Below, in pieces: positions 19,602-57,774 of a stretch of DNA of 64,000 nucleotides; positions within the stretch are counted from its first letter, which is position 1; the number at the start of each line of letters is the position of its first letter. Under the pieces are notes generated by a model. The model was not told the DNA's origin, searched no databases, and saw only the letters and a program-made list of their open reading frames with translations. The stretch covers positions 62,432 through 126,431 of IMG/VR virus record IMGVR_UViG_3300012933_000323; one strand, given 5' to 3'. A program made the translations under genes and the position numbers. The stretch is from a virus (taxonomy: Duplodnaviria > Heunggongvirae > Uroviricota > Caudoviricetes).

Positions 19602-20042
19602 TTAAATATTATGAATGCTTTCTATAGTAAACACATTGGTATCTGTATCATATGAAATGACAATTACCTTTGTGCTAAAAAACCATTGCCTTGTGGCACT
19701 TTTCCTTCTTCGTAATTTAGAGATTTCTCTATCTGTACCAGATTCTGTCATGGTGTGTTTGCGCCATGTCTTTACTTCTGTTCTTGTGCCACCTGGCGAA
19801 ATTAGATCATGCCATTTTGCATCATCATTCGTATAGTTAAATTGTGACATAAGAATGTACTCGCCAATCTTACCTAGCAAAGTATCTTTCCGTATATCAT
19901 CAAATGTACGAGGTCTACCCGATAGTGAATTATTATCTGCATAATCTGATTCATAAATCGAAGTAGCCTCAAGGTCCGCAGCATCTAATACATATTGCGG
20001 AAGTGCATCCCTATCAACAACAAATTGATCACCAATCACCAT
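19602..20042 (-). CDS. hypothetical protein
   Basis: 146-aa ORF. Confidence 0.4.
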   Translation of the reverse strand: MVIGDQFVVDRDALPQYVLDAADLEATSIYESDYADNNSLSGRPRTFDDIRKDTLLGKIGEYILMSQFNYTNDDAKWHDLISPGGTRTEVKTWRKHTMTESGTDREISKLRRRKSATRQWFFSTKVIVISYDTDTNVFTIESIHNI

Positions 20043-22578: not shown

Positions 22579-23979
22579 TCAGTTAAAAATTTTGTCAATT
22601 TGCATCTGAATCATTTCATCCGAGTTTTCAATATACTCATTAATACGAAGATGTTTCTTTAAATCATTTAAGACATTAATTCTTTCATCGTCATGTTCAT
22701 TATAGAAATTGATGCGTTTCTCAATATCTTCTGCACATCTTACAATAAGCTTAGATTGAATTTCTGCTGGAATCTGTAAACAAGCAGGATCGTATTGGTG
22801 ATCTAATAACGGTAAGATATCTCTATATGTGTACAGAACTGGTCTAAAGTTCAATGAATCATTAATTGATACACACCTAAAGACCATGCCGTACTTGTAT
22901 CTTTGCGTTTTTTCATTTAACTCATGTGGTAGTAAAGAACCTTTAAAGTGCGCATGATTTTTAACACTTTCATATAGATCAATGAAGTTCTCGTTCTCTT
23001 TTAATAATGATTCTTGGTACTCAGCTTTTCCGCCATGACTCTTATTAATGCCGTTTCTTCTTAATGGGATATAGTAAGAACACTTTTGTGATTTAACACC
23101 ATTTAAGAATTCGTCCCATATAAATCTACGTGAACCTTTATCCTGGAAAATTGTACCAGCAAAGAACATGTTATGCGACTTTTCAACTAGTGGTTCGTCC
23201 CAATCATCCAACCCAACAGGTTTGAATTTATTGTCGTAGACGATGTGTTGTAATTGCGCAATGTCCAACTGATTAAAATTTCTAGTGCCCCGCTTATCGT
23301 CGGCAAAATAGAAAAATGTTGATTTGACATTATGTTTATCAAAGTAAGGTGTATAGATGGCTGGGTCAATTGAAAAACCAATTACTTTGCCATTTAACTT
23401 ACCACTACGATTAATAAATTCAATTGCGCGCGTAAACAAGTTATAGTCCTGTGTACTAAATGCAAACGGAGAAACATATTTGTCATAATATTTAATGACC
23501 ATATCGTTCACTTCGTCGATGTCTTTTAGTACTTGTTCATCTGATCCAACATAATCAAAGAATTCGTTCTCAAGGTCACTTAGATATGCGTGAGTTTTTC
23601 TTGATGCATAAGCTGTTAACGGAAGTCTAAAGAAGTCGTCTGTGCCAAGTACAATATAATCAATCTGTGGCAAATCTTTAAAGCTTTCAGCTAGCCAACC
23701 GTCCAAGGTAACTTTGTTCTTTTCCCTATAGTCTGGTCCAGCAACTTTTCTCAACAGCTTTGCAGTTGGCTTGCGGTTAATCTCATAGTAATTATCAGTT
23801 AGTCCACAGCCTGAACCCACTGTGATGATATTGAACTTATCTTTAATATGTTCTTTAATAACGCGCGCTGCACCATAGATATGGGTGTACGCACTTTGGT
23901 CACCCTTATCCATAAAAATTACAGTTTTCTTACTATCATCAATAATAAGTTTCCCTCGTAACTCAAAAATCATTTTCAA
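22579..23979 (-). CDS. hypothetical 466-aa protein (second glycosyltransferase candidate)
   Basis: No motif recognised; the call rests on its position inside the modification operon. Confidence 0.35.
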   Translation of the reverse strand: MKMIFELRGKLIIDDSKKTVIFMDKGDQSAYTHIYGAARVIKEHIKDKFNIITVGSGCGLTDNYYEINRKPTAKLLRKVAGPDYREKNKVTLDGWLAESFKDLPQIDYIVLGTDDFFRLPLTAYASRKTHAYLSDLENEFFDYVGSDEQVLKDIDEVNDMVIKYYDKYVSPFAFSTQDYNLFTRAIEFINRSGKLNGKVIGFSIDPAIYTPYFDKHNVKSTFFYFADDKRGTRNFNQLDIAQLQHIVYDNKFKPVGLDDWDEPLVEKSHNMFFAGTIFQDKGSRRFIWDEFLNGVKSQKCSYYIPLRRNGINKSHGGKAEYQESLLKENENFIDLYESVKNHAHFKGSLLPHELNEKTQRYKYGMVFRCVSINDSLNFRPVLYTYRDILPLLDHQYDPACLQIPAEIQSKLIVRCAEDIEKRINFYNEHDDERINVLNDLKKHLRINEYIENSDEMIQMQIDKIFN

Positions 23980-25498
23980 CCTTTAAATAAATTTCTTTAA
24001 AGATGTTATAGTAAATCTCTTGATTATTTTTATTATGTGAGTGCAATGGTATCATGCTTAGGAATAAGCTTGCACAAATCAATAAAATATACTCTTGTTC
24101 ATCCTTTGAGTAGTATTTATTGAACTTATCTTTAAACAGATTTTTGATGCTGTCTTTGCCTTTGTTATAAAGTTGGTATGTACTTCCATCTTTTACATAA
24201 AGTTCAGCGTCAACAAAATCGTAATCAAACATAATTGAATGGCACATTTTTGCTACTTCATAATAGTGATCACCAAATAATTCACCACGTGGGTCAATCA
24301 TTGTAAGGTTACCGTTGAAGTCATAAAGTAGATTACTAAAACAATAATCGCCATGCATCAATGTTGGCCGAGGGCAAATAGAAGCAATTGCACTTTCAAA
24401 GTCTTCAATGAAATCATTTACTAACTTATTTTCAATTGGAATTTCAATATCTTTCACACGAGACTTCGTCTTGTCAATTACGGTTTTCATAAAACTATTA
24501 TGTTGACCATACGTCTGCATAACACGAAGTTGCTCAAACATTGCTTCAAACAACGTATCCCAGGTTTCTTCTGAAGAATCTAAAAACAAGTAAATTTCGC
24601 GAACCGATGGGGCTTTAACTTTTTCCATCTTATACCATGTACGCGCAGCGAATAAATCTTTTGCAAAAATTCTTGGAGTATGAATCGCAATATCATCTGG
24701 TAAATTCATAAACCAGTTGCACTCTTTAATGATCTTTTCGCGCTCTTTCTCGCTTGACTTAGTAATAAATGGTCCGTCAATTTTAATGTCATTAAATGAT
24801 CTAGAAATCTTAACAGATCTATTCTCCAAGTACTCTTCCAATGTCCCGAAGTCAACCATTGAAAGATTGATAGTACTCATGTAATATTCATCAGCCGTCC
24901 ATTGAAGAGTTGTGCTTAACTGGAATTCACCCGCAATTTTGTATGATGCATCACTTAGTTGTTTAGCCAGCATTTTAAACAATGTCTTTGAACTAACAAA
25001 ATGATACACTCCGCTAACAGACAGGTTAGTATTAGGTCTATCCTGTGGCTTATCCAGGAATTGTTTACAGTAACCGTCAGCATCAGTTTCAACCATACAC
25101 CAACGTGAATAGTCAGGTACTTCCTTAACGGAAATAAAATTTGCATAGAACATGTCACTTGGGATATCATCTTGCACAACTAGATCACCCAAGAGAATAA
25201 GCACATTCTCGTTAACGTCAGTTGGATCCTCTGCTGCCAAGACGGCACCAGCTAATCCATTTCGTTCTTCTTGATGGCAAATAGTGACGTTCTTATTGTA
25301 AAACTTTAGAATGTCTTTTACTGTATCTTCTGCATGATTTAGTACTACACGGATTTCTGTACACCCGTGCTTTTCCAACCACTCAATCTGGTGAATAAGA
25401 ATTGGCTTTTCTTTGTACGGTAAGATTGTCTTACTGTAGTGCTTGCCCAATTCTTTAAATCTAACACCGCGACCGGCGGCTGGAATAATACCTAACAT
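23963..25498 (-). CDS. bifunctional sugar-1-phosphate nucleotidyltransferase (N-term) / APH-choline-kinase-like anomeric kinase (C-term)
   Basis: The N terminus reads MLGIIPAAGRGVRF...LILLGD (RmlA/GlmU/LicC fold). The C terminus carries LMHGDYCFSNLL and MIDPRGE (HGDxxxxN...D kinase motifs, as in LicA/NahK/AmgK). Confidence 0.65.
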   Translation of the reverse strand: MLGIIPAAGRGVRFKELGKHYSKTILPYKEKPILIHQIEWLEKHGCTEIRVVLNHAEDTVKDILKFYNKNVTICHQEERNGLAGAVLAAEDPTDVNENVLILLGDLVVQDDIPSDMFYANFISVKEVPDYSRWCMVETDADGYCKQFLDKPQDRPNTNLSVSGVYHFVSSKTLFKMLAKQLSDASYKIAGEFQLSTTLQWTADEYYMSTINLSMVDFGTLEEYLENRSVKISRSFNDIKIDGPFITKSSEKEREKIIKECNWFMNLPDDIAIHTPRIFAKDLFAARTWYKMEKVKAPSVREIYLFLDSSEETWDTLFEAMFEQLRVMQTYGQHNSFMKTVIDKTKSRVKDIEIPIENKLVNDFIEDFESAIASICPRPTLMHGDYCFSNLLYDFNGNLTMIDPRGELFGDHYYEVAKMCHSIMFDYDFVDAELYVKDGSTYQLYNKGKDSIKNLFKDKFNKYYSKDEQEYILLICASLFLSMIPLHSHNKNNQEIYYNIFKEIYLKVENDF

Positions 25499-28853: not shown

Positions 28854-29426
28854 TTAAACAACTTTGTCAATTAAACCTAAGCATTTTGCATCTTCAGCTG
28901 ACATATAAAAGTCACGTTGTGTTTTCATTTTTAATGTTTCTAATGTAGATTTGCCGTTTGTAAAGTTGGCAATATCAATTAGTAAACTATCTTGTAAGAA
29001 CTTTGTTTCTTCATAATCAATTTTCATGTCATGAAATGTACCCATTGTCCCAGAACTAACGGAGTGAATCATAATACGGCAATGCTTCATTGCCCTACGT
29101 TCTCCAGTTCCTGATGCTAACAAGTAAGCACCCATTGACGCACACATACCAACACCAACTGTATTTACTTTGCACGGGATATGATCAATAATATCTTTAA
29201 TGGCCAATCCATCATACACAGAACCACCTGGGCTATTAATGTAAAAATTAATTGGTAACTCAGGATTATCCGCAGCAAGCCAAAGCATCTGCATAATGAT
29301 AATATTTGCGGTATCAGGATTTACATCCTCTCCCAAATATACAATTCGGTCTTGCAGCAATCGACTTGGTAAATCGATTGGTTTTTCTGAGCGACCGGTT
29401 TTTTCAATTACGTTTGGGATTAACAT
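28854..29426 (-). CDS. clpP: ClpP serine protease homolog
   Basis: INSPGGSVYDGLAIKDII...GMCASMGAYLLASG...CRIMIHSV is collinear with E. coli ClpP (INSPGGVITAGMSIYD...GQAASMGAFLL...SRVMIHQP). Confidence 0.85.
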   Translation of the reverse strand: MLIPNVIEKTGRSEKPIDLPSRLLQDRIVYLGEDVNPDTANIIIMQMLWLAADNPELPINFYINSPGGSVYDGLAIKDIIDHIPCKVNTVGVGMCASMGAYLLASGTGERRAMKHCRIMIHSVSSGTMGTFHDMKIDYEETKFLQDSLLIDIANFTNGKSTLETLKMKTQRDFYMSAEDAKCLGLIDKVV

Positions 29427-39039: not shown

Positions 39040-39585
39040 TCACCAATCTGAAGATGGACTTGACGAACTATCAGAAGAACTCCAAGAAGATGAACTATCT
39101 GATGAACTTGACGAACTTGAAGAACCCCATGAATAGCTTGGGGATTCATCCCTGTAACTTGGCGACGTATCTTTGTATGGTACATCATCATTACGACTTG
39201 AGCTTCGAGAAGTGTCGCTATGTGAACTCATGATGTTATTAATCACCATTGCGGTTACCACATTATCAACGAAACTGTCATCTTGCTTTGTCACTGTTTG
39301 CGCAGTAGGTTTGTTATCAGCATAAATGTACGTTCTTGGTTGGTTCTTTGCCGCTTTTTCTAACTCAGCTTTGCGATCAGCATCTTGCTTAGCAAGGGCT
39401 GCTCTTGCGTAACGCTTGCTTTCAGCTTCGCGAGCTTCACGCCCACGGCGCATGATTTCTTCATTCAATTCATTGCGCGCTTTTTGTTTAGCACGGCATG
39501 ATTTTACAATACTAACAATCATGTAAATTCCAATGAAAAGGATTAAGGAGGCAAAACCTCCTAAGATTAGGAGGTCTTCCATCAC
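39040..39585 (-). CDS. membrane-anchored protein with charged helix and Ser-rich low-complexity tail
   Basis: N-terminal TM segment, a KQKARNELNEEIMRRGREAREAE helix, and a C-terminal SSSSSSSSDSSSSWSSSDSSSS tail. Confidence 0.4.
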   Translation of the reverse strand: MMEDLLILGGFASLILFIGIYMIVSIVKSCRAKQKARNELNEEIMRRGREAREAESKRYARAALAKQDADRKAELEKAAKNQPRTYIYADNKPTAQTVTKQDDSFVDNVVTAMVINNIMSSHSDTSRSSSRNDDVPYKDTSPSYRDESPSYSWGSSSSSSSSDSSSSWSSSDSSSSPSSDW

Positions 39586-40931
39586 TTGCCTTTCGATGTA
39601 AATTTATCTAGCAGTTGTTTACCGATCTCGCTTTGGGCAAGTCCTTCAAGAGCTGCACCAACATTGCTACCACCTTGTGAAGTAAACAATTCACCTAGTG
39701 AACTAATACCGCCAGTGACGGTACCGCTGTTAGCAATAACCTTGATGTCTGCTTTATCCAATGCGCGAGCTTGTTCAACACCGATTGCCTGGTTAGCTTC
39801 AACTTGACGAATTGTGATAAGGTACTGTTGGTAACTTTGGTTCTCGCCGATTTCTTTAGCAAGGACAATCTGTGCTTCAACTGGAGCAAGTTGTAGTAAC
39901 TTTTCAGCTTCAGCTTTAGCTTGACCGTTAACCAATAGACCTTCAGCTTCTCGTTTCTGAGCTTCAAGAGTACCTTCAGCAATTAGAACCGTTTTCTGCT
40001 TTTGACCTTCGGCACTGATAACATCAGTTTGCTTACGTTCTTCAGCTTGAACAATATTAACGTCTTTAGTAATCTCTGCAGCTTTCACGTTTTCAACACG
40101 TTGAACTTCCATTGATTTTTCAGCAGTTACTTTTTGTTGCTGTTTGATGTCTTGTTGAGCCATCTCATTGGCAATACCAACCGCTTTATCTTTCTCAGCC
40201 GTTTTGATACCAACTTGTTCAGCAGCCAATTGGCGATTAATTTCAACTTCACGTTGAGCATCAATCTCAGCATTTTGAGCAGCTTTCTTGTTAGATGCAA
40301 CGACGATTCGTGATTCTTTTTCGATCTCGGACTTTTTCTTGTCCATGATATTCTGAATTACTTGTGAATCTCGACTGTCTCGAATGTCCATCAGTTCGAT
40401 GTTCTTAACAGTTGTAACACCCCAAGCTTTGAGTTGTTCGTTAACTTCTTTTGTGAAAGCATCACCGAACTCAGAACGACCTTGCATGATTTCTTCAATC
40501 GTTTTGCTTGCAAGAATTGTACGAGCAGCACCTTGAAGAATAGACATCAATTGTGAACTAAGTTCTTGGAAACTAAATACACGTTGAGCCGCAATGTTTG
40601 AATTCTCAATACGGAAGAATGCTTCAAGGTCAAGTACGAATGGCAAGCGACCGTTGTCATATGCTTCATAGTCTTTCAAGCGCAAACTAAACACAGATAC
40701 TGGAAGTTTGATAACTTGAATACCAATTACTGGAATCCAACTTGGCCACTCATAGTAAGTATTACCGTCTGCTTGATCTTTACCGTAAGAAACGGTTTGT
40801 TTTGAACTTTGGATAATGTGTACTTCATTAGTGCTTACAACACGACGAAGACCTAGAATCCAAAATACGATTGTTAATGTAAATGCAATAGCAAGCATTA
40901 GTCCAATTGTGGGGAGGAGTGCGATTTCCAT
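39582..40931 (-). CDS. flotillin-like SPFH/Band-7 membrane protein
   Basis: N-terminal TM segment, an SPFH core, and a long flotillin-type Ala/Glu/Gln-rich coiled coil (AEQVGIKTAEKDKA... EAQK). Confidence 0.6.
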   Translation of the reverse strand: MEIALLPTIGLMLAIAFTLTIVFWILGLRRVVSTNEVHIIQSSKQTVSYGKDQADGNTYYEWPSWIPVIGIQVIKLPVSVFSLRLKDYEAYDNGRLPFVLDLEAFFRIENSNIAAQRVFSFQELSSQLMSILQGAARTILASKTIEEIMQGRSEFGDAFTKEVNEQLKAWGVTTVKNIELMDIRDSRDSQVIQNIMDKKKSEIEKESRIVVASNKKAAQNAEIDAQREVEINRQLAAEQVGIKTAEKDKAVGIANEMAQQDIKQQQKVTAEKSMEVQRVENVKAAEITKDVNIVQAEERKQTDVISAEGQKQKTVLIAEGTLEAQKREAEGLLVNGQAKAEAEKLLQLAPVEAQIVLAKEIGENQSYQQYLITIRQVEANQAIGVEQARALDKADIKVIANSGTVTGGISSLGELFTSQGGSNVGAALEGLAQSEIGKQLLDKFTSKGK

Positions 40932-40942
40932 TTTTGTCTTTC

Positions 40943-41743
40943 TTACTTATTCACAACCACTTGACCTTTGAAGTCACGTGGAACGATGATGGTATTGATA
41001 TGACCAGCCAATGCAGCTTGTGAGTAGTTCAACTCTGCTTGTGCTTGGATGTAAGCAATAGATTGTGCACCTTGGCTTGATAGTGCTTGCATACGCTGAG
41101 CTTCAAGTTTCGCGGTTTCAACCTCTACTTCTTTCTGACGCTTTTCGTTTTTAGAACGAACCAATGAGTTAGCAGACTCAACAACGATGTCGGCTGGAAC
41201 TACACTACGAATAAGAACTTGCGTAATATTGATAGCGCCGTCAAGACCTTCATCATGCAATGTTTTCTGAATTTGCTCTTTAATTGCAATTTCCATAGCT
41301 TGACGGTTATCACCCATGTCAAGAGCTTCGTATTTGCGAGCTTCTTTGTACATTGCATTACGAGCCGCGTTGTAGATGTAGTTAAACATCAAGTAAGTAT
41401 CACCGTCATGACGAACGTGGAATGCTTTAGACTTTGTGTTGTAAAGTTCAGCAACCTGTGACTGGTTCAAACTGTAGATAACAATAGCATCAACATCTTT
41501 CATTGTTGAGTTATCTTTAGCAACCGGTGTCATGTCATCAAGTTTGACGTTGACATCCTTAACTGGAAATGTAAGAACATCGCCAACTAGTGTTTGGTTC
41601 CAAGAACCTGGTACCAACTCTGTCGTGTTGACTTGTTTGTTGATATCAACACGAAGGCCGACCTCACCTGTCTCGATGCGAGTGCACCCAGTGGTAAGGA
41701 CGGCCAGTGCGCCAATAATGGCAAAAGACTTCAAAATTTTCAT
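40943..41743 (-). CDS. SPFH/Band-7 domain lipoprotein (prohibitin/HflC-like)
   Basis: Lipobox LTTGC, an SPFH core, and a C-terminal coiled coil. Confidence 0.5.
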   Translation of the reverse strand: MKILKSFAIIGALAVLTTGCTRIETGEVGLRVDINKQVNTTELVPGSWNQTLVGDVLTFPVKDVNVKLDDMTPVAKDNSTMKDVDAIVIYSLNQSQVAELYNTKSKAFHVRHDGDTYLMFNYIYNAARNAMYKEARKYEALDMGDNRQAMEIAIKEQIQKTLHDEGLDGAINITQVLIRSVVPADIVVESANSLVRSKNEKRQKEVEVETAKLEAQRMQALSSQGAQSIAYIQAQAELNYSQAALAGHINTIIVPRDFKGQVVVNK

Positions 41744-41801: not shown

Positions 41802-44800
41802 TTAGTTAAAGTATTTCAAGAATTTTTCATATTCCTTAGGATAATTCACTCTAAAATCTCTAACTGATGTAAATGTGTAGTCCATGTTGTTTTCGGTGCC
41901 AGCCACTACAATGGTTGGTCCGTATGCAGATGGTTCTAAAGTAATTTTATCTGATGGAGATTTAAATTCTGTGAAGTCACAAACGTTTTCAGGGTTTGGC
42001 CCATTTGGCAGAATGCCATTAATAAATGTGTATGTTGTGTAGTTCATCTTCTCATCAATCTGTTCTGTTAAATAATCTTTAAATGATTTCTCTGTCACGG
42101 CTTGTTGGTATTTCTTTAATAGATCATTCATATCCGTTGGGCTGATTAGTTCTACTTCATAGGCTTGGTAAATCTTAAACTGTGCATTTGGTGTAAATAC
42201 ACACCATTCTGGCGAACGAATACTATCAGATCCTAAACCAGCAACTTTATAATCAACACCCTTTGTACCAAGCGCTGCGTTCATCTTAAAGATGTAACCC
42301 TTGGTACCGTAGCGACGTGAAAATCCAGTATCACCAACATATTGCTGAGCTTTATCAATAATGTTTGAACCGTAAATACCATCACCAAGCATACGGCCAA
42401 CTACTAAAGAATCACCAGACTTAAGAACTCTAAAGCCATAGCGTAGAATCATTGAAGCACCAATAGAACCAGTTCCATGGAACATTGGGTTAATGATTTC
42501 TTCACCTTCGTGTGAGGCCATCCATGCCTTTTGTTGTTCTTCTTGGATAGGGATAGACACTTTAAATGATTTGATGACTCTTAGTGTAGTATCACCGTGA
42601 CGGCCATTTCGTTTGTTTCTATGTAAGTCAACTGAAATTCTGTCGAGGTCTTCTTGTGAAGCATTAACAACTTCAACCTTTTGACCTTCTAGTTTGCCAT
42701 GACTGTAATCGTTATCCTTAACATCTTTGATGTAAGCATCCATTGTATCAAACGTCTTTGTGAATTTAGCAGGCACTTTCGTTTCGGCGTTAGATACGTT
42801 ATTGTATTTTAGGATTTCTTTGATACGTTTCTTATCTAGTTTTTGGTAAGGTACAATTGGGCTTTCATCATTGTGCAATAGGCCTTCAACAGTTGAAGAG
42901 AACCCAGCTTTCGTTAGGTAACTTTCTGCCATACGAGCACGCATGTTATATGACATTTTGTCATACATTTTTTGAGCACCAGCACGATCTTCATCTACCA
43001 TATTATCAAAGTATTCCTGCACAGCACCAACGTTGTCTTTGAAATAGTTTGATTGTTTCTTAATCCATGTGGCGTCGTCCATAAGATCTAATGTACTATT
43101 AAAGATTGCGTCCTTTTGAACTTTAGAAATATTCTTATAGTCTTTAGTGTTAACATTCTCAAGAATATCGCTAACGCTATGTTGACGATTACTTTGCTTA
43201 ATCATCTGGAATGTTCTTGTTATTGCAGAATCAATGTCATCTTTAAATGCATCAGTGTATTCGTTAATCGCAAGCATATCGTTCAATGTACTAACTTGCG
43301 TAGTATCTATGAAGATACGTTTCTTGTCTGGGTTAGAAAAATATCTCGTGAAAATTGTTGTCTTTTCAGCTTCATCAAAATTACCAACGGTATTTGAAAG
43401 ATTATGATAGCCAATCTTCTGCAATTCTGTATCGGATAACGCGGCAATAAATTCAGAGTCAGTTAAAGCCATAGTGCCAGTCGCATTATGAATAAACATA
43501 TATGCTGGTTTTGTCTTTGCGTTCAAATCTTTATATGTGAATACCTTGCCTATGCCAGCAACACTGTTAAGTATTGATGTAGTATCACTCTTTCTACCAG
43601 ATAGTTCGTTAAGTGTCGATAACTTAAATACAATATCGTTCAATAATGTAGTTTGTTCATCTGATGTCAAAATATCCCAAATGTTATTTCTTTGGGTGAT
43701 ATGAGTATACACTTGATTGCTGTACGTGTCGATATTTCTCATGTCCAACGCAGATTCGTGAATCTTGTCTGCAATGTCTTTACGCAAAGAAGCATTTGCA
43801 CGAACCAATCTAACAAAATGCGAGAACATTGATGTCGTACCAGGTACTGTTCCCATGCTACGAATTCTTCTTAAGATTGTGTTAAGATCAACACCTGCTC
43901 CAATGATGAATGAAATAAGATGAGTATTTAGTTTATCAAGTTTTCTATTTTCAGCTAAAGATAGTGTATATGAGAATACGTTCAGAACATTTTCATGGTC
44001 AGTACTTGACATTCGTTTCTTTACGAACTCATCTAACTTAGCAATTAGTTTATCTGTCAATAATTCGATGTCGTAACCACTTATATAGCTAAGAATGCCA
44101 CGAATGAATATCAACGCTTTAATATCGTCAAACTGATCAATGATTTGAATAAGTTGTTGCTCAATTGATTGTAAAGCTGTAGCACTAAACGGCTTGGCGC
44201 CGTATGTAGTTGTTAGCAAACGATCAAAGTCATATCCATAACCGTAAGTACCGGTTGTTCTAATAGCGTATGCTAAGATGATGTTATCTTTATCTGATTT
44301 GGTTAAATGGTATTCGTTCATGATCGCTTTGATCGTATTGTTATTCCAATCAAATTCAGAATCAGCGTATGATAGAACACTTGTGCCGTTTACGTTTTGT
44401 ACACTTGAACCAAGTGACATGATGAACTCATCAACGGTTTTAAATTTTAAGTAAGAGTTAATAAATTGTATGTTCGGACCACCAGAAATATATCCTGGAC
44501 GAATGCCGTGATCAAGTTTAGAAACAGTTTCTTTTGCTTCTTTAAGATTAGCTGCATTTGGGTTATCAAACAAACTCTTGGCTAAACCACCAAATACATT
44601 TTGCATTGTGTATTTGAACTGAGCATAATCACATGCATTAATAACACCATCAAACAAACCGATATTTTGCGCAATCAGAAGCCTCTTTACCATGTGCGCA
44701 TAATTTTTTGATAAGCGAATAGCACTATCAATAGTACCGGACATAGTACTTAATACATTTTTAGTTTGTACGTTTGCAGTAATGAATTTTGCAAGTTCTT

Positions 44801-45707
44801 TTAATTGCGGTTCTTGTGGTTCATTTGATGTACTCATGATCATCTGCAGAGATGCAATTAATGCACCTTTTCTTTGTTCAGCTGTACTCTTATAAACGTT
44901 ATTGAAGTTATCAAGAGTTCCACCATTTACAAAATATGCAACAACTTGCATATTTCCTGGCCACTCTTGCTTTTCAATTTTTTCAGGCTTCTTTGGTTTC
45001 TCGACTTGCTTTGGTGTGGCAGGCACTTGTACTACAGGTTCCACGGTTGGTGCAATTGCTTTACTAATTCCAGCGATGTTTGCCAATCTATGGTCAATAG
45101 ATTTCTTAGACATCATATCAACGTCCCAAGCAGTTATCTTTGACTTCTCAACGTTCAACCCTCTAAATGCATCAAAGAAATCCTTAGATACATCCGTCTG
45201 AACACGTGCACGAACACGTAAGTTCATAAATGCTTTGTACTGATCTTTGTCAAGAATGAATTCTTCTTTAGTTACCTTTAGGTGTGATCCTAATTTTGAC
45301 CACCATGAATCTTTGATCCCGTTCATCCACTCGATAAGAATGGTTGGATCTACTTCATCAATACCACCTTGCTTTAATTTAACCAAGAATCTTGTGATTT
45401 GTGCAGATGTAGTTGAACTCTTAAAAGCACCCTTGTCATCTAGTAATTTAATGATCAATGACATGTTGTTATTTTCATCTGAAATGTTGTTCAGTTGAAG
45501 TTTTAAGTCATTTTTAAAATATGTATGAGCTCTTTGTTTATCTTTAATAATGTTGTAGCCGATTAGCATACCAACAAAATTAAACATAAAAGCAGACATC
45601 ATGGCCTTTTCATCGGTCACGAATGTCTGCTTTGAAGTTGCGTCTGTATAAAGTGTATTTTCGCGTAGAGCTTCTTGCTGTTTGCGATATTCATTAAAAG
45701 TCGTCAT
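41802..45707 (-). CDS. 1301-aa multidomain protein with a C-terminal PARP-like (H-Y-E) ADP-ribosyltransferase catalytic domain
   Basis: [20 protein letters not shown] aligns with PARP1 [41 protein letters not shown] aligns with [41 protein letters not shown] aligns with [20 protein letters not shown], which holds the catalytic Glu. The catalytic region maps to about nt 42130..42540. Confidence 0.6.
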   Translation of the reverse strand: [1301 protein letters not shown]

Positions 45708-45761
45708 TTTTAAATCCCTAGAAATTACATAGTATATGTTTATTTATAAGGATATCATATG

Positions 45762-46412: not shown

Positions 46413-46783
46413 TTGATTGCTGCAATACGGTTAAGATGCAATGTAACGTGTACTGTGCGTGTTTTGTTTTCAATATGAAGTGTATCTTTAACTTCAGCCC
46501 ACGTACGACTGTCGTACTCCGTCTTCCAATCAAACTCACGACCATCTGGATGGCACCAATGTGAATATTTTTGTTCCATTGCTACTCGGGCACGAAAATT
46601 ACCAGTTGGCTTACTTACGATATAACCAATGTATGTACCCTTATCACAACCAACGTGGTTGCCATAACCAGAACGAACCATCATTACTTGTTCACCTGGT
46701 TGAATCGTAGTACCAATAGCACCAGTGATTGGTTTAACGTGAACCTCAACCGGTACATACTTTTTGTATTTCTTTTCAGTCAT
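46409..46783 (-). CDS. hypothetical protein
   Basis: 124-aa ORF. Confidence 0.4.
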   Translation of the reverse strand: MTEKKYKKYVPVEVHVKPITGAIGTTIQPGEQVMMVRSGYGNHVGCDKGTYIGYIVSKPTGNFRARVAMEQKYSHWCHPDGREFDWKTEYDSRTWAEVKDTLHIENKTRTVHVTLHLNRIAAIK

Positions 46784-47868
46784 TACTTCTCTCCTAGTAG
46801 ATATTTGTTAGAGATTGCCTTGAATGTAAATCCACCGTTGACTTCTTTGAACACTACGCCTTCACGTAGATGGCCAGTGAAACCAATTACAGATTTACCA
46901 TCAGCATAGTCTAACAGTTGCGGGATATCCGTGATATTCAATGAGCCGTGCAAAGTAGCAGATTCTTCAATCACTGGTGCATGCTTCAAACCCATACGAG
47001 CGATGAGGTCGCGGCGCGCCTGTGGCATTAGGTATTCACCGGTCTGAATATTGTAAACATCAAACACTCGGAACTCTGTTTCTGTTAGACCGTAAATGTT
47101 ATCCTGGATGCCTGGACCAACAAGCTCACCTTGAATTGCGAAATCCCAGAACTCATCAACTGCTTTCATCTTAGCTTCGATGTCATCCTTGCGAGCTCTA
47201 TCCCAGAATGAGTTACCTTCTGTTTCTTTTAGGTTCAAGTTACGTGAACATACGCCAAACTCCATTTCATCATCTACCTTCATTCGGTAAACGGTCATAG
47301 AAGAACCTTCGCACTTTTCAGTAATTTCAAATGCTGTATCTGCTTCGTTAGCTTGAGTGATTTCTTTCTTCAAGTTCTGGCATCGCTCTTGATCCGTCTT
47401 AGGAATCTTTGATGGGAAGTTACCTTTGCACGTACCTGCTAGTTGAGCAGGAATTGCCTTTTCCCATTTCTTGATACCAAGATATTCCGTTAGGTCTTCA
47501 CCTTCAGTGACACCAAACTCGTAGCCCATAGAACCTTTAGGGATTTGCGCCAATGGGATTAGCAAACCTTGGGAAATTTGACCACGAAGTTTGATAGTCT
47601 TTAGACGTTCACCTTCTACACCCTCAAATGATTTTGGGTAGTGCCCAGCTTTTGTCAAGAACGGCGCGATGGTGGATGGGATCCAAGAGTCGATTTCAAA
47701 ATATACTGCTAGATCACCAACATTATACAAGCCTTTTTGTGCAACAACTTTCCAACCACCTACTGTGGCAACCTCAATTTTGTCAGCACCTTCGATAGGA
47801 TCCAAAGAATCAATTGTTCGAATTGTAGCTAATTTTCTCATTTTCTTTCCTTCTTTATTCAATAACAC
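46783..47868 (-). CDS. ATP-dependent RNA ligase, DraRnl/TIGR02306-like (N-terminal OB-like domain + nucleotidyltransferase)
   Basis: The N terminus reads MRKLATIRTIDSLDPIEGADKIEVATVGGWKVVAQKG...GDLAVYFEIDSWIP, and motif I is ITEKCEGSS (KxEG). Confidence 0.5.
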   Translation of the reverse strand: MLLNKEGKKMRKLATIRTIDSLDPIEGADKIEVATVGGWKVVAQKGLYNVGDLAVYFEIDSWIPSTIAPFLTKAGHYPKSFEGVEGERLKTIKLRGQISQGLLIPLAQIPKGSMGYEFGVTEGEDLTEYLGIKKWEKAIPAQLAGTCKGNFPSKIPKTDQERCQNLKKEITQANEADTAFEITEKCEGSSMTVYRMKVDDEMEFGVCSRNLNLKETEGNSFWDRARKDDIEAKMKAVDEFWDFAIQGELVGPGIQDNIYGLTETEFRVFDVYNIQTGEYLMPQARRDLIARMGLKHAPVIEESATLHGSLNITDIPQLLDYADGKSVIGFTGHLREGVVFKEVNGGFTFKAISNKYLLGEK

Positions 47869-53899: not shown

Positions 53900-55330
53900 T
53901 TACTTGTTAGAGTTTGCTCGAACTTCATCAAATGTATATTCACTGATGATTTTTCCATCACGGAATACTGTTTGCATTGCTTCAGTCCAACCACCGAAAC
54001 CCTTATCAGTCCAACCCGTTGGTGGAGTTACACCACTAGCGAATTCACCACCAGAGTTTGTCCATAAGGTAACTCGGCCAGCTTTTGATTTCTTACCAGC
54101 GTCAGTGATAGGATCTTTCTGAACATCAATCCATTTGCCATTGATTTGAGCAGAAGAACACTTCATAGCAAACTTTTGTGTATCACGATTAATGCCTTGT
54201 AGTAAAGCACCACCCATACCGAATGCAATGTTGTCAGCAGAGTAGCCAAGAACGCTAAAGTGGCCAAGGATGTTACGAATCACTCGTTCATTAATACCAT
54301 CACCTTGAATCAAACGAACATTGTTCAATACTTTGAAACCTTTGTCGTTTGTTGTGTATCCAAATTTCTTAGCAAGGATCTGGACCAATCTGACGCATAC
54401 GGCTTCAGGATCACCAGAGTCGGGTCGGATAACCACTGTTGCACCAGAGTCGATAATCTCTGCCTTGAGTTCGTCACCCCAAATATTTTCTGTTGCATTG
54501 AATACGTCATACGAATCGCTTACCACTGCGAAGATGGCCCCTTCACGTCCGAATTGCTGCAGCATATTTCTGTAGGCTGAGGCTTCGTTTTCTCGTCCCC
54601 AACTTGTGATGGTGCTGTGCTCTGCGGCGGGGATGGAGAATCCTGCGATTCCGGCGTTATAGTATTCACGAGCAAAAAGCAGGCCACTAACAGTGTCTGT
54701 ACCCATAAAGTTAACGAGGTGGGCCGCTCCTCCAAGTCCTGCAGACTCGAGACTAGATACACCCCGAGAGCCAAAGTCATGAAGTTTAAAGTTAAGACCA
54801 TTAATGTCTCCTGTTCTATTTAAGAAACCAGCAATCACATTCTTAATTGATTTAGATTGTGTCGCAACGGTTGTGGGATACCATACTGCACGAAGCAATG
54901 CGGTCTCTAAGTATGTAGTCAGCCAGAAACATTCAGGATCCGTGTTTTCAATAGTCGCCAATACGTTTTTAACAGGTACCACTGTGCCTTCAGGAACAGC
55001 GCGGATAACGACAGGAAGGTAACCTCCGTGTACCCGTAGAATGTACTCCCATCCTTGTCGGTTAAAGGGTTCTCCGTGAGCACTGAGAATCTCGTCAGCA
55101 ATATCAATGTCGGCTTGTGTGATTGGCTCAAGTAGGTATTCCTTAATGAAGGCTTGCAAACCGAAGAATACTGTTTCATCGTAAACACCACCACGGGATT
55201 CAATGTAACTATACACGCCGGTTGTGTTAGCTGGGTATTGCTTAAACATTGAAACTTTGTATGAGTCAGTGTTCAAAAGAATGTTTTTAGTTAATTTCAT
55301 GATAAACTCCTTATCGTTTGTTATGTACAA
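53900..55330 (-). CDS. nadV: nicotinamide phosphoribosyltransferase (NadV/NAMPT)
   Basis: Long collinear blocks match NAMPT: FSIPAAEHSTITSWG, VSDSYD, IRPDSGDP, IQGDGI, NIAFGMGGALLQ, and KKSKAGR. Confidence 0.85.
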   Translation of the reverse strand: MYITNDKEFIMKLTKNILLNTDSYKVSMFKQYPANTTGVYSYIESRGGVYDETVFFGLQAFIKEYLLEPITQADIDIADEILSAHGEPFNRQGWEYILRVHGGYLPVVIRAVPEGTVVPVKNVLATIENTDPECFWLTTYLETALLRAVWYPTTVATQSKSIKNVIAGFLNRTGDINGLNFKLHDFGSRGVSSLESAGLGGAAHLVNFMGTDTVSGLLFAREYYNAGIAGFSIPAAEHSTITSWGRENEASAYRNMLQQFGREGAIFAVVSDSYDVFNATENIWGDELKAEIIDSGATVVIRPDSGDPEAVCVRLVQILAKKFGYTTNDKGFKVLNNVRLIQGDGINERVIRNILGHFSVLGYSADNIAFGMGGALLQGINRDTQKFAMKCSSAQINGKWIDVQKDPITDAGKKSKAGRVTLWTNSGGEFASGVTPPTGWTDKGFGGWTEAMQTVFRDGKIISEYTFDEVRANSNK

Positions 55331-55362: not shown

Positions 55363-55842
55363 TTAATTTTTATATTTGTTTTTAATAAATTCAGCAACTT
55401 CTTCAAGAGAATTCGCCATCTTCATTCCAGTGTGCTTACACATTATGTCAACATTACCTTTTCGCCAAAATCCGTAAGGACAGCAAACAATAACATCGGT
55501 TAAATGCCGCTGCATTGATGCAACATACCCAAGTTCCATTAATGTGATTGGGCTTTTTGTATTAGGATCAAAATAAAATACAATGGTTTCGGCATAATCT
55601 AATCCATCAAGTTCCCATGTAACTTGTTGATTAAATTCTGGATTATCAATTGATTGTACCCATGATGAATCCCAATCATCACGCCGAGGATTTAATAGAA
55701 TACATTTTATATCGGTTAACATGTTACCGAGACGTTCTTGCCATTGTTCGGCTACTCCCATTTCAATTGATCCTGCCAAGAAAATACTTGGCGAATCAAA
55801 TTCAGGAATAACATTTGGTGCTTTGAGCATTTTCATAGTTGC
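55363..55842 (-). CDS. nucleoside 2-deoxyribosyltransferase/Rcl-like (NDT-fold) protein
   Basis: SIFLAGSIEMG...NP...E...ELGYVAS fits the NDT pattern. The likely start is MATMKML at about 55842; the track start at 55935 overlaps the upstream gene. Confidence 0.4.
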   Translation of the reverse strand, partial: ATMKMLKAPNVIPEFDSPSIFLAGSIEMGVAEQWQERLGNMLTDIKCILLNPRRDDWDSSWVQSIDNPEFNQQVTWELDGLDYAETIVFYFDPNTKSPITLMELGYVASMQRHLTDVIVCCPYGFWRKGNVDIMCKHTGMKMANSLEEVAEFIKNKYKN

Positions 55843-56777
55843 CATTCCTTTGGAGTATGTACTTTTTGAAGTCCACAACCAACTGATGGTTTGACATGTT
55901 CTGGGTGATCTTTCATCCAATCTTGGACATACCACAATTGACCACAGCCTCCACCGATAGTATCTTGACCAGCCGGATCAAATATTCGAACATCGTAGCC
56001 GTTAACAACCAACTTGTTTCCGAACTCAATTGCTAGGTTACGTTGAATCTCATTAGTTGCTTCTGCATGAGCATCCCGTTCACAAATAACTGAAACTGTG
56101 GCATTCCATATAGCAGGATGGAACAATTTCAAAAGACGAGAAACATCTTCATATTTGTCGTTATTTTCATGAGCACAGTAGTTGAAGTACGGCTTGCGAC
56201 CAGTATCCAAGTACCAACGAACACCTACATCTGCAATTTCTTGTAGATTTAGTTTCTTATCAAATGGAATCAACTTATCACGAGCCTCATCAGTTGATTC
56301 GTGAATACTGAATTGCAAACCAACCGTTGGGATTCGCTTACTCATATCGATAATCCATTGATAGGAAACTTTAGGACCTGACGAACTAATTAGCAGTGCA
56401 GCATTTGGGTATTTTTCGTAGAGGATCTCAAATGCTTCTTCTAATGCTTTGTTCAAAGCAGGTTCACCCATTGACATTACCATGATTTGAAGCTTCTTGA
56501 TGTCATTTGGATTTAAACCGTCAATCTGTGTTTCAAGAATGTACTCGGCTTGTCCTACGATTTCATCGGCGGTAAGATTTCTAACAAAATAATCCCCTGT
56601 GCCACAGAAACGGCAACCCATAGGGCAACCGCACATAGTGCTAATACAAAGAACAGTTCGTTCTTCATATGTCGGATAACGGTAAAGAACTGACTCAATT
56701 GCGATGTCGTCTTTTTCAAATACGTATTTTTTAACATGTTCTTTTTCGTCTTCAAAGACATTAATATTTTTCCACAT
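55833..56777 (-). CDS. radical SAM enzyme of the RlmN/Cfr family
   Basis: LCISTMCGCPMGCRFCGTG (RlmN CVSSQVGCALGCTFCSTG), MSMGEPALN (MGMGEPLLN) and a C-terminal GGCGQLW (the second catalytic Cys, GAACGQL). Confidence 0.5.
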   Translation of the reverse strand: MWKNINVFEDEKEHVKKYVFEKDDIAIESVLYRYPTYEERTVLCISTMCGCPMGCRFCGTGDYFVRNLTADEIVGQAEYILETQIDGLNPNDIKKLQIMVMSMGEPALNKALEEAFEILYEKYPNAALLISSSGPKVSYQWIIDMSKRIPTVGLQFSIHESTDEARDKLIPFDKKLNLQEIADVGVRWYLDTGRKPYFNYCAHENNDKYEDVSRLLKLFHPAIWNATVSVICERDAHAEATNEIQRNLAIEFGNKLVVNGYDVRIFDPAGQDTIGGGCGQLWYVQDWMKDHPEHVKPSVGCGLQKVHTPKEWQL

Positions 56778-56787
56778 AGTAAGCTCC

Positions 56788-57774
56788 TTACAGTTTTGCG
56801 AAAGCAGGCATTGGCATTACGCCAGTTACTTTTGAGACGATGTCTTTGTGGTCATCATACATCTCAATATTATTGAGAGCATCAGTGAGTGGCACCCACT
56901 TACACAAAGCAGCATCATCGGCACCATTTGCTCGTGGAAGCGAACCATCTGGGTTAGGACTGATTCGCATATAGACCGCAAGAGTATTGCGTGGAATACC
57001 AAATGAACGACTAGGATCGTCAAACAGTTCAGTCTTTACGATAGAACCACGGAGAACTTTTTCAGGAACTCTTACGTTTGTTTCTTCTTGAAGTTCGCGG
57101 ATGGCGCAGTCAAGAAATGTTTCGCGCTGGTTCCTGAACCCACCAGGTAAAGCCCAAGCTCCTGCCCCTGGCGCATACTTCCGTTGGATAAGAAGGATGT
57201 GGCCTTGGCATTCAAGGATGGCGTCACTACAGTTGAAGTTGAGTGTTTCTGGGAATGGGTAGTTTGCAAAGGTAGCCGCCTCTTTCTTATAGTAATTATA
57301 ATCAGCTTGAACAGATGCTGGCATATCAGGATCATCTGTTTCAAACATACGCTTACGTGTTGCAGATGCATCAATTTTGTACTGAGATTCAATGCTTTTG
57401 AATTTCCAGTCAGGAAACCATGTGAGATAGTCGTTACCATCTTTCATGTGGCCAAACAATGTTGGAACTTCTTCAGTGAAGTGTTCAATTGTTGCTCGTA
57501 CGTCTGCCATCCATTGAGTATCGCTATAACGATAATCATTGATTGGAACAATCTCGTAGTTGTAGATGCGGTGAGCATGCAACTTAGCCATTAACATAGC
57601 TTTACGTTCTTGGAACGTCCATGGATTCTTAATACTACGACACTGATTTGCTGATCCCACAAAGATGTACAGCTGAGCTACTTGGGATGCTGCGATTCCT
57701 AACGCATGTATATGTCCTTGGTGGACTGGTTGGAATCGACCGATGAAGATACCGGCTTTGATTTTTTCTGTCAT
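56788..57774 (-). CDS. natV: bifunctional NMN adenylyltransferase / Nudix hydrolase (NatV-like)
   Basis: The N terminus GIFIGRFQPVHQGH matches the NadM (H/T)xGH motif, and the C-terminal Nudix box reads PGGFRNQRETFLDCAIRELQEETN. Confidence 0.8.
   Translation of the reverse strand: MTEKIKAGIFIGRFQPVHQGHIHALGIAASQVAQLYIFVGSANQCRSIKNPWTFQERKAMLMAKLHAHRIYNYEIVPINDYRYSDTQWMADVRATIEHFTEEVPTLFGHMKDGNDYLTWFPDWKFKSIESQYKIDASATRKRMFETDDPDMPASVQADYNYYKKEAATFANYPFPETLNFNCSDAILECQGHILLIQRKYAPGAGAWALPGGFRNQRETFLDCAIRELQEETNVRVPEKVLRGSIVKTELFDDPSRSFGIPRNTLAVYMRISPNPDGSLPRANGADDAALCKWVPLTDALNNIEMYDDHKDIVSKVTGVMPMPAFAKL

What the first reader, a model, noticed from the sequence alone, without database searches (positions are those of the whole stretch)
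41802..45707. Giant 1301-aa phage protein ending in a PARP-like H-Y-E ADP-ribosyltransferase domain
Three consecutive blocks near the C terminus (about nt 42130..42540) align with the PARP catalytic core: FHGTG...[11 protein letters not shown] with the H-G-S loop; [20 protein letters not shown] with the G-x-G-I-Y-F...Y donor-site loop; and SPEWCVF with the catalytic Glu strand. T4 itself uses R-S-E type ARTs (Alt/ModA/ModB), so a PARP-clade ART on a very large, otherwise unrecognisable protein is unusual. It could be an injected effector that ADP-ribosylates host proteins or nucleic acids, in the manner of DarT- or PARP-type enzymes. The upstream about 1000 aa have no motif I can place.
Basis: partly seen in the sequence, partly recalled or inferred. 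Interest (0 to 1): 0.75.

Follow-up and report, generated by a model that had tools for sequence, protein, structure and literature searches.

The report
Phage head-packaged PARP-like ADP-ribosyltransferase
This 1301-residue phage protein really does end in a PARP-type NAD+-using enzyme domain, and its promoter and N-terminal signal suggest it is loaded into the phage head and injected like T4 Alt; its family has been known from sequence since 2005 but has never been tested.

Summary

New here:
- A T4-type late promoter box (TATAAATA) lies 34 nt upstream and is conserved in relatives.
- The N-terminus ([17 protein letters not shown]) resembles the T4 internal-protein capsid-targeting sequence (MKTYQEFIAE|A).
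- It ends in an [LI]-x-E prohead-protease site. E16 is the only invariant residue in the first 900 aa across 101 relatives.

I conclude, by inference, that this is a capsid-packaged, injected PARP-clade ART. It is an analog, not a homolog, of T4 Alt. Targets are unknown, as is mono- versus poly-ADP-ribosylation.

The family is not new. The Aeh1 homolog was called a PARP-like ART in 2005, 2014 and 2022, and some GenBank records say "ADP-ribosyltransferase". It is large (239 clusters at 50% identity) and experimentally untouched.

Verdict: new member of a known kind, moderate interest.

The parts
45741..45748 (-). T4-type late promoter box TATAAATA, 34 nt upstream of the ATG, inside the 54-nt intergenic gap
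   Evidence: The window holds only 7 copies; others lie 37 nt upstream of the terminase gene and 83 nt upstream of a cell-wall hydrolase gene. An exact box is kept in close relatives L003 and L070. In 28 distinct related loci, 17 have a box with at most 1 mismatch within 100 nt upstream, against a 7.4% background. T4 alt has the same arrangement.
45715..45719 (-). Shine-Dalgarno-like AGGGA, 7 nt before the ATG
   Evidence: Read directly from the sequence.
41802..45707 (-). Whole ORF, 1301 aa, 147.5 kDa, including the stop codon at 41802-41804
   Evidence: Matches PHROG 18612 at 2e-112. Full-length relatives are 46-96% identical.
45660..45707 (-). Residues 1-16, [16 protein letters not shown]: putative capsid-targeting pro-peptide ending in an L-R-E|N prohead-protease site
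   Evidence: T4 IPII and IPIII start MKTYQEFIAE|A, and IPI starts MKTFKEF..ITE|A. The regex M.T[FYW].E[FYW] at the N-terminus hits only these giant proteins and the three T4 IPs among 397 control ORFs. 154 of 161 relatives have [LIVF]-x-E-N-x-hydrophobic-aromatic near the start; P3 is L or I in 145, P2 is free, and the commonest pro-peptide length is 10 aa. E16 is the only invariant column of the first 900 aa over 101 sequences. The model shows low pLDDT here, and the site lies between helices.
45075..45659 (-). Residues 17-211: conserved all-alpha N-domain (pI 9.1), found only at the N-terminus of this family
   Evidence: The profile finds 239 clusters, and the domain starts at residue 2-24 in nearly all of them. 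128 of the 150 listed also carry the PARP module; the 22 without it are 48-867-aa fragments. pLDDT is above 90.
44958..45074 (-). Residues 212-250: disordered Pro/Lys/Glu-rich linker
   Evidence: pLDDT is below 50 for residues 212-243. Identity to relatives is 28-51%. A spurious Ribosomal_60s hit falls here.
43011..44957 (-). Residues 251-899: fast-evolving all-alpha solenoid body
42681..43010 (-). Residues 900-1009: conserved helical pre-ART region (motif I-x-P...LD..R...ILKYNN), in the position PARP1-3 use for the regulatory helical domain
42138..42680 (-). Residues 1010-1190: PARP-fold ADP-ribosyltransferase core
42477..42479 (-). His1077 codon (F-H-G-T-G), aligned with PARP1 H862
   Evidence: Alignments. 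H in 22 of 23 relatives and Y in one.
42372..42374 (-). Tyr1112 codon (G-D-G-I-Y), aligned with PARP1 Y896. Nearby K1119 and Y1123 align with PARP1 K903 and Y907.
   Evidence: Y1112, K1119 and Y1123 are invariant in 23 of 23.
42207..42209 (-). Glu1167 codon (S-P-E-W-C-V-F): inferred counterpart of PARP1 E988
   Evidence: Invariant in 23 of 23, and at least 90% conserved over 101 sequences. It is the first residue of strand 268-271 of the model, in the same order of secondary-structure elements as PARP. No sequence method aligns it.
41805..42137 (-). Residues 1191-1301: conserved acidic (pI 4.7) beta-rich C-terminal domain with no match to anything known
   Evidence: No Pfam or PDB match falls outside the ART region.

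Best explanation
The gene encodes a ~147-kDa internal virion (ejection) protein of a distant T4-like phage. It is a functional analog of T4 Alt, but built on a PARP-clade (H-Y-E) catalytic domain.

Proposed sequence of events:
1. The gene is transcribed late from a gp55-type TATAAATA promoter.
2. The 16-residue N-terminal pro-peptide acts as a capsid-targeting sequence and takes the protein into the prohead scaffolding core.
3. The prohead protease cuts after Glu16 (L-R-E|N). The mature 145-kDa protein (N-domain, linker, alpha-solenoid body, PARP module) stays in the head.
4. At the next infection it is ejected with the DNA.
5. Before any phage gene is expressed, the C-terminal PARP-like domain binds host NAD+ (His1077, Tyr1112, Tyr1123) and, with Glu1167 as the catalytic residue, transfers ADP-ribose onto host macromolecules. 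The fast-evolving alpha-solenoid body is the likely target- or partner-binding part.

What is shown and what is inferred:
- Shown: PARP-family fold and homology, His/Tyr equivalence, promoter box, pro-peptide motif, and family architecture.
- Inferred: Glu equivalence, catalytic activity, packaging, cleavage, and injection.
- Unknown: the target, and whether mono- or poly-ADP-ribose is made.
For: PARP domain:
- The family profile hits only PARPs in the PDB (79 hits, PARP1 2e-9).
- All 23 relatives match PF00644.
- hhalign against PARP1 gives 94.7% probability.
- H, Y, K, Y and S-P-E-W are invariant.

Late expression:
- An exact TATAAATA lies 34 nt upstream and is kept in L003 and L070.
- The box is enriched upstream of the gene in 28 related loci: 61% have a box with at most 1 mismatch, against 7.4% background, and 14% have an exact box, against 0.35%.
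- The same box precedes the terminase and cell-wall hydrolase genes of this phage and precedes T4 alt.

Packaging signal:
- The N-terminus matches the real T4 IP capsid-targeting sequences. Among 397 control ORFs the motif hits only these proteins and the T4 IPs.
- Relatives have near-copies of the T4 signal, for example MKRLQSFIAE|N and MKKFNEFIQE|N.
- A conserved [LI]-x-E has a free P2 residue and follows a leader of variable length. E16 is the sole invariant residue of the first 900 aa.
- The literature says all T4 internal head proteins use such a targeting sequence, that gp21 removes N-terminal pro-peptides from Alt and the IPs, and that Alt is cut at ITE-6 and is present at about 40 copies per head (PMC5694885; PMC7697877).
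- About 44% of phage ARTs lie in head-packaging contexts (PMC9503650).
Against: - There is no virion proteomics or biochemistry for any family member.
- The Glu is not aligned to PARP1 E988 by any sequence method.
- The gene sits among small early-type and nucleotide-metabolism genes, not in the head-gene module.
- The gp21-type prohead protease of this phage is not in the window and was not verified. The only protease in the window is a ClpP.
- The conserved L-x-E-N-x-L-Y could simply be a structural element of the N-domain.
- In Aeh1 the upstream box is degenerate (ACTAAATA).
- In Aeromonas phages an ADP-ribosylglycohydrolase gene sits next door, which others read as a toxin-antitoxin-like pair (PMC9503650).
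Confidence: 0.6

Rival explanations
1. The protein is an active PARP-like ART that stays in the infected cell and is not packaged. It is made late and modifies phage or host proteins during late infection. Alternatively it acts with an ADP-ribose eraser (ARH or macrodomain) as a toxin-antitoxin-like or superinfection-exclusion pair.
For: - An ADP-ribosylglycohydrolase gene (Pfam 1.7e-32) lies directly upstream of the Aeh1 homolog. Iyer et al. describe an ART-ARG toxin-antitoxin-like pair in Aeromonas phages (PMC9503650).
- A macro-like ORF is present in the window, and its homologs lie 3-4 kb downstream of the ART in 4 phages.
- The gene neighbourhood is not a head module.
Against: - An eraser lies within 10 kb in only about 6 of 40 long loci, and none is adjacent here.
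- This reading does not explain the T4 capsid-targeting-like leader, the invariant E16 of an [LI]-x-E site, or the variable-length pro-peptide.
- T4 alt itself lies outside the head module and still has the same promoter and pro-peptide layout.
- An eraser is equally expected for a packaged enzyme, to protect the producing cell.
Confidence: 0.2
2. The protein is a catalytically dead pseudo-PARP, like PARP13, TASOR or RCD1, kept as a structural or binding module of a large virion or scaffold protein.
For: - The query itself scores below Pfam's gathering threshold.
- The Glu is not aligned by sequence methods.
Against: - H-G, G-x-G-I-Y, K, Q-Y and S-P-E-W are invariant or more than 90% conserved across 23 to 101 divergent members.
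- The ART region has the lowest dN of the protein (0.035).
- Pseudo-PARPs characteristically lose these residues (general knowledge of PARP13 and TASOR).
Confidence: 0.07
3. The PARP module acts on nucleic acid rather than protein. For example, it ADP-ribosylates DNA or RNA ends or bases of the host or of the incoming phage genome, as PARP1-3 and DarT do.
For: - A capsid-internal enzyme travels with DNA.
- The N-domain and the ART region are basic (pI 9.1 and 8.9).
- The best matches are to the DNA-dependent PARP1 and PARP2.
- The pre-ART helical region sits where the PARP1-3 regulatory helical domain sits.
- PARP-type and DarT enzymes are known to modify nucleic acids (PMC8385414, listed).
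Against: - No recognisable DNA-binding domain was found: no zinc finger, WGR or OB hit.
- Helical-domain homology is not supported by sequence.
- This is a sub-variant of the main explanation and concerns the substrate only.
Confidence: 0.13

Closest known systems
Aeromonas phage Aeh1 ORF131c (AAQ17796, 1211 aa) and the rest of PHROG 18612 (Aeromonas PX29 and phiAS5, Stenotrophomonas Moby and Mendera, Pseudomonas pf16, Ralstonia RSP15, Xanthomonas X1 and BUDD)
   Same: Same family and architecture: N-domain, variable body and C-terminal PARP module. Identity to Aeh1 is 38-43% in the conserved parts, and the PHROG match is 2e-112. The PARP-like domain of Aeh1 was already reported in silico (PMC1266365, PMC4245714). 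Some GenBank records are annotated 'ADP-ribosyltransferase'.
   Different: No cultured phage has a protein closer than about 40% identity, and there is no nucleotide-level match. The query clade has a longer, more T4-IP-like 16-aa leader. It has no adjacent ARH gene. The window phage belongs to another T4-like lineage, nearest to 191-kb Vibrio phages by terminase. None of these proteins has been studied experimentally.
Bacteriophage T4 Alt (gpAlt, 682 aa)
   Same: It is the working model: a large ART transcribed from a TATAAATA late promoter about 30 nt upstream. It has a short N-terminal pro-peptide removed at an [LI]-x-E site (ITE-6), is packaged at about 40 copies in the head, and is injected with the DNA.
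   Different: There is no detectable homology (hhalign probability 0.04%). Alt is an R-S-E clade mono-ART, whereas this protein belongs to the H-Y-E PARP clade. This protein is twice as large and has an alpha-solenoid body.
Eukaryotic PARP catalytic domains (PARP1, PARP2, tankyrases; Pfam PF00644)
   Different: - Sequence identity is about 13-20%.
- The loop between the G-L-G strand and the Glu strand is about 9 residues here, against about 40 in PARP1, so it resembles tankyrases and mono-ARTs more.
- There are no zinc fingers, BRCT, WGR, ankyrin or SAM domains.
- There is an extra C-terminal beta domain.
- Polymerase activity is untested.
T4 internal proteins IPI, IPII and IPIII
   Same: The N-terminal capsid-targeting leader M-x-T-[YF]-x-E-[FY]... 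is followed by [LI]-x-E|.
   Different: The IPs are small (95-193 aa) non-enzymatic or inhibitor proteins. Only the leader is similar.
DarT (DarTG) and diphtheria-toxin-type ARTs
   Same: They belong to the same broad H-Y-[EDQ] ART clade and use NAD+.

Membership tests
PARP catalytic domain family (Pfam PF00644; ARTD / H-Y-E clade) | Significant sequence-profile match to the PARP catalytic domain | tested here: met
   The query alone is sub-threshold (18.2-20.7 bits against a gathering score of 26.7). The family profile gives PARP1 E=2e-9, and all 79 PDB hits are PARPs. 23 of 23 relatives hit PF00644, several above the gathering score. hhalign gives 94.7% probability.
PARP catalytic domain family (Pfam PF00644; ARTD / H-Y-E clade) | ART beta-alpha-loop-beta-alpha NAD+ fold closest to PARPs | tested here: met
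   [not shown]
PARP catalytic domain family (Pfam PF00644; ARTD / H-Y-E clade) | His and Tyr of the H-Y-E triad at equivalent positions (PARP1 H862, Y896) | tested here: met
   H1077 aligns with H862 and Y1112 with Y896. In addition K1119 aligns with K903 and Y1123 with Y907, in the HMMER and hhalign alignments. These residues are invariant in the family.
PARP catalytic domain family (Pfam PF00644; ARTD / H-Y-E clade) | Catalytic Glu at the position of PARP1 E988 | tested here: inconclusive
   No sequence method extends to this strand. Pfam matches end at profile position 137 of 199 or earlier. Local and global hhalign, the sub-profile search and the pairwise alignment were all uninformative. 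Three things support the assignment: E1167 is invariant, it opens the penultimate core strand in the model, and the order of secondary-structure elements is the same as in PARP. The tools give no access to residue-level superposition.
PARP catalytic domain family (Pfam PF00644; ARTD / H-Y-E clade) | NAD+-dependent ADP-ribosyl transfer (mono or poly) | not testable with these tools
   Needs biochemistry. No experimental paper on any family member was found.
T4-type capsid-internal (ejection) proteins: IPs and Alt | Late (gp55-type, TATAAATA) promoter | tested here: met
   An exact box lies 34 nt upstream. It is conserved or enriched in relatives. T4 alt has the same layout. It is a sequence motif only; transcript timing was not measured.
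T4-type capsid-internal (ejection) proteins: IPs and Alt | N-terminal capsid-targeting sequence followed by an [LI]-x-E prohead-protease site | tested here: met
   [17 protein letters not shown] compared with T4 MKTYQEFIAE|A and MKTFKEF..ITE|A. The motif is specific among 397 control ORFs. 154 of 161 relatives keep the site, and E16 is invariant. This is a motif-level match; function was not tested.
T4-type capsid-internal (ejection) proteins: IPs and Alt | A gp21-type prohead protease encoded by the same phage | not tested
   It is outside the 64-kb window. The only protease in the window is a ClpP. gp21 is a core gene of T4-like phages by established knowledge, and the window phage has a T4-type terminase, a gp41-type helicase and a split family-B polymerase.
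T4-type capsid-internal (ejection) proteins: IPs and Alt | Physical presence of the processed protein in virions and its ejection into the host | not testable with these tools
   No virion proteome covering a homolog was found.
DarT-type DNA ADP-ribosyltransferases | DarT fold or sequence similarity and a cognate DarG-type macrodomain antitoxin adjacent | tested here: not met
   [not shown]

The most novel reading that the evidence does not exclude
The family is a true capsid-delivered poly(ADP-ribose) polymerase of bacterial viruses. It would be injected with the genome, with the pre-ART helical region acting like the autoinhibitory helical domain of PARP1-3. On entry it would be switched on, for example by DNA ends or a host factor. 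It would then build ADP-ribose chains on host defence or nucleoid proteins, or cap the incoming linear genome ends. The phage's own NAMPT and NMNAT/Nudix genes would recycle the released nicotinamide, and a macrodomain would erase the mark. That would put regulated PARylation, so far regarded as essentially eukaryotic signalling, at the very first step of phage infection.
Probability: 0.12. Interest if true: 0.85.

Novelty: new member of a known kind. Interest (0 to 1): 0.5.

Why it matters
T4's injected ART (Alt) is a classic example of a virus reprogramming its host before any viral gene is expressed. This family would be a second, unrelated solution to the same problem, using the enzyme clade that eukaryotes use for PARP signalling.

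The family is large: 239 clusters at 50% identity, in T4-like phages of Aeromonas, Stenotrophomonas, Pseudomonas, Ralstonia and Xanthomonas and in many uncultured phages. It is completely uncharacterised.

The packaging prediction makes it directly testable, through virion mass spectrometry for a peptide starting at Asn17 and early chloramphenicol-insensitive ADP-ribosylation. If the enzyme makes polymers, it bears on the origin of eukaryotic PARPs, which Aravind and colleagues trace to bacterial and phage conflict systems. The fast-evolving alpha-solenoid body suggests an arms-race interface with host targets.

Tried and rejected
1. Aligning Glu1167 to PARP1 E988 by sequence. Local hhalign stops at 'ALG'. 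A pairwise tail alignment is not significant, with 132 of 1000 shuffles scoring as well. A sub-profile of the Glu-strand region against the PDB aligns only the G-I-Y part. Forced global hhalign has zero confidence and picks another register. Pfam matches in ten relatives end at profile position 137 of 199 or earlier. The Glu equivalence is therefore left as an inference from structure.

2. The N-domain as a swappable delivery module with alternative warheads. Rejected: 128 of 150 N-domain proteins carry the PARP module, and the other 22 are short fragments. In cultured phages the N-domain occurs only in these genes.

3. Obligatory linkage to NAD+ salvage or eraser genes. Rejected as a general rule. 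Within 10 kb of the gene in 40 long loci, NAMPT occurs in 6, NMNAT/Nudix in 2, ARH in 2 and macro in 3-4.

5. Homology to T4 Alt. None.

6. Window ORF 28854-29426 as the prohead protease. It is a ClpP, so it is not informative.

7. dN/dS by region. The DNA of the 96%-identical relative was unavailable. Against the 80%-identical relative dS is saturated, so only 'purifying everywhere, body fastest' can be said.

8. Virion proteomics in the literature (pf16, Stenotrophomonas phages). None was found.

9. PADLOC defence models. No hit for the giant protein.

Full report
OBSERVATION. The ORF is exactly as described: 41802..45707, minus strand, ATG start, 1301 aa, 147.5 kDa. GC content matches its surroundings. 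The three quoted motif blocks are present and map to residues 1076-1173, which is nt ~42190-42480. As a single sequence the PARP signal is weak: Pfam PF00644 gives E=0.0018 and 18.2 bits, below the gathering score of 26.7, and PDB phmmer gives PARP1 at E~0.1. PHROGs places the protein in phrog_18612, of unknown function, at E=2e-112.

IS IT A PARP DOMAIN? Yes.
- Database searches returned 12 full-length relatives (46-96% identity) and 18 shorter or partial ones. Several of these pass Pfam PARP on their own.
- An alignment of 23 C-terminal modules (A1) shows invariant or near-invariant H1077-G, G-x-G-I-Y1112, K1119, Q-Y1123 and S-P-E1167-W.
- The profile of that alignment finds 79 PDB sequences, all of them PARPs: PARP1 E=2e-9, PARP2 2e-8, tankyrase 7e-5. 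All 23 members hit PF00644, with a best E of 4.5e-11. hhalign against the PARP1 catalytic fragment gives 94.7% probability.
- The alignments place H1077 on H862, Y1112 on Y896, K1119 on K903 and Y1123 on Y907.

ANATOMY OF THE REST. The protein has six further parts.
1. Residues 1-16 form a leader.
2. Residues 17-211 form a conserved, basic, all-alpha N-domain.
3. Residues 212-250 form a disordered Pro/Lys/Glu linker (pLDDT below 50).
4. Residues 251-899 form an all-alpha solenoid. It is confidently modelled (pLDDT above 90) but evolves fast, at 27-45% identity in relatives whose ART is 73-88% identical.
5. Residues 900-1009 form a conserved helical pre-ART region. It sits in the place and has the size of the PARP1-3 helical regulatory domain, but without sequence support.
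6. Residues 1191-1301 form an acidic beta-rich C-terminal domain with no match.

A profile of the N-domain, searched against 1.84 billion representative proteins, finds 239 clusters. Almost all are 1050-1700 aa long with the domain at the extreme N-terminus. Of the 150 listed, 128 carry the PARP module and the other 22 are short fragments. This is one obligate architecture, not a modular delivery system.

PACKAGING SIGNALS. Three lines of evidence are new here.

(a) Promoter. A perfect T4 late-promoter box, TATAAATA, lies 34 nt upstream of the ATG in the 54-nt gap.
- Of the other six copies in the window, one lies 37 nt upstream of the terminase gene and one 83 nt upstream of a cell-wall hydrolase gene.
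- The exact box is retained in the 61%- and 80%-identical relatives.
- In 28 distinct related loci, a box with at most 1 mismatch (mostly N-ATAAATA, 20-45 nt upstream) occurs in 17, against a 7.4% background. The exact box occurs in 4, against 0.35%.

(b) Leader. Real T4 sequences start MKTYQEFIAE|A (IPII, IPIII) and MKTFKEF...ITE|A (IPI). The query starts [17 protein letters not shown].
- Among 397 control ORFs, the pattern M-x-T-[FYW]-x-E-[FYW] at the N-terminus hits only the giant proteins and the three T4 IPs.
- Relatives have leaders such as MKRLQSFIAE|N and MKKFNEFIQE|N.

(c) Protease site. 154 of 161 family members have [LIVF]-x-E-N-x-hydrophobic-aromatic near the start.
- P3 is L or I in 145 of them, and P2 takes 18 different residues.
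- The leader is 4-45 aa long, most often 10 aa.
- E16 is the only invariant column in the first 900 residues over 101 sequences.
- In the model the site lies in a lower-confidence, non-helical stretch.

[quoted passage not shown] T4 alt itself shows the same layout of terminator, TATAAATA about 27 nt upstream and MELITE|. It is not homologous to this family.

CONTEXT. The window is from a distant T4-like phage. It has a gp17-type terminase, a gp41-type helicase and a split family-B polymerase. The nearest cultured relatives by terminase are 191-kb Vibrio phages at 66% identity, and these did not appear among the giant-protein matches.

The gene is flanked by an RNA ligase and small ORFs upstream and by two SPFH/Band-7 genes downstream. 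NAMPT and NMNAT/Nudix genes lie 8-12 kb away. A macro-like ORF, nearest to DarG-type macrodomains, lies 17.7 kb away.

In Aeh1 an ARH gene is adjacent and NAMPT is nearby. In Moby, NMNAT/Nudix and NAMPT are nearby. Across 40 long related loci, however, these links are the exception. They are therefore lineage-specific accessories, not part of a fixed system. They are plausibly NAD+ replenishment and self-protection.

MECHANISM. The proposed steps are: late transcription; capsid targeting through the leader; cleavage after E16; storage in the head; ejection with the DNA; immediate NAD+-dependent ADP-ribosylation of host macromolecules by the PARP module; and the variable solenoid providing target or partner binding. 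My confidences are about 0.95 for PARP homology, about 0.7 for catalytic activity and about 0.6 for packaging and injection.

Mono- versus poly-ADP-ribosylation is open. Glu and the K903 equivalent are kept, as in polymerising PARPs (this point rests on my own knowledge of PARP1 acceptor-site residues). The acceptor loop, however, is short. The target is also open.

The rivals, with evidence for and against each, are listed separately: an unpackaged late enzyme or toxin-antitoxin-like pair, a dead pseudo-PARP, and nucleic acid as the substrate.

WHAT IS KNOWN. The Aeh1 protein was listed as one of two viral PARP-like ARTs in 2005 (PMC1266365). It was listed again in 2014 with a conserved H-Y-E (PMC4245714). 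'PART (PARP)' is named among the most frequent viral ART families, and an ART-ARG pair in Aeromonas phages is noted (PMC9503650). Phage PARPs in jumbo phages were mentioned in 2021 (PMC7824862). Several GenBank records already say 'ADP-ribosyltransferase'. I found no experimental work.

The finding is therefore a new, fairly divergent member of a family known only from sequence analysis. The capsid-targeting leader, protease site and late-promoter evidence for packaging appear not to have been spelled out for this family in the papers I could read.

VERDICT. Novelty: new member of a known kind. Interest 0.5.

Noticed in passing
The best PDB match is 5m3i (E=9e-4), aligned through the N-x6-G-G-G-I-A signature. 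The PADLOC DarG model scores 3.9e-4, and PHROG 335 'phosphatase' scores 3e-33. Homologs lie 3-4 kb downstream of the giant ART gene in four other phages, including pf16 (L031, L032, L035, L048).
   Followed up: partly
window 53900-55330 (-) and 56788-57774 (-), with 55833-56777 (-) between them: NAMPT (NAPRTase plus NAMPT_N domains) and a bifunctional NMN adenylyltransferase/Nudix form a phage NAD+ salvage pair of the NARP2 type. A radical-SAM ORF sits between them. NAMPT lies within 10 kb of the giant ART in only 6 of 40 related loci.
   Followed up: partly
window 28854-29426 (-): A full-length ClpP protease (Pfam CLP_protease E=5.6e-49) is encoded by this T4-like phage among nucleotide-metabolism genes. 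A TATAAATA box lies about 250 nt upstream.
   Followed up: no
window 39582-40931 (-) and 40943-41743 (-): Two tandem SPFH/Band-7 genes lie immediately downstream of the giant gene; the second is a predicted lipoprotein (PHROG 200). They are conserved in this position in the close relatives L003 and L070 but not in more distant loci.
   Followed up: partly
L001 4942-5823 (Aeromonas phage Aeh1 ORF132c): An ADP-ribosylglycohydrolase gene (Pfam 1.7e-32) lies directly upstream of the Aeh1 homolog of the giant ART, and a NAMPT-like gene lies about 5 kb downstream. The window phage has no ARH next to its copy.
   Followed up: partly
[not shown]
   Followed up: partly
window 12036-13160 (-) and 13384-14985 (-): The family-B DNA polymerase is split into two ORFs, an exonuclease/N-terminal part and a polymerase C-terminal part, as in some divergent T4-like phages.
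   Followed up: no
window 20036-21325 (-) and 23963-25498 (-): A C5-cytosine DNA-methylase-like ORF and a nucleotidyl-transferase/aminoglycoside-kinase-like fusion ORF lie close together. This possibly points to a DNA or sugar-nucleotide modification pathway.
   Followed up: no
window 46783-47868 (-) and L003 1064-1939: An RNA ligase (PHA02142 OB fold plus RNA_ligase domains) lies two genes upstream of the giant ART and is conserved there in close relatives. A second, T4 Rnl1-type ligase lies nearby in L003.
   Followed up: no
L071 3440-3570 (T4 alt upstream region): T4 alt has a terminator hairpin, then TATAAATA about 27 nt before its ATG, then MELITE|. This is the same promoter and pro-peptide layout as the window gene, although the proteins are unrelated in sequence.
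   Followed up: yes
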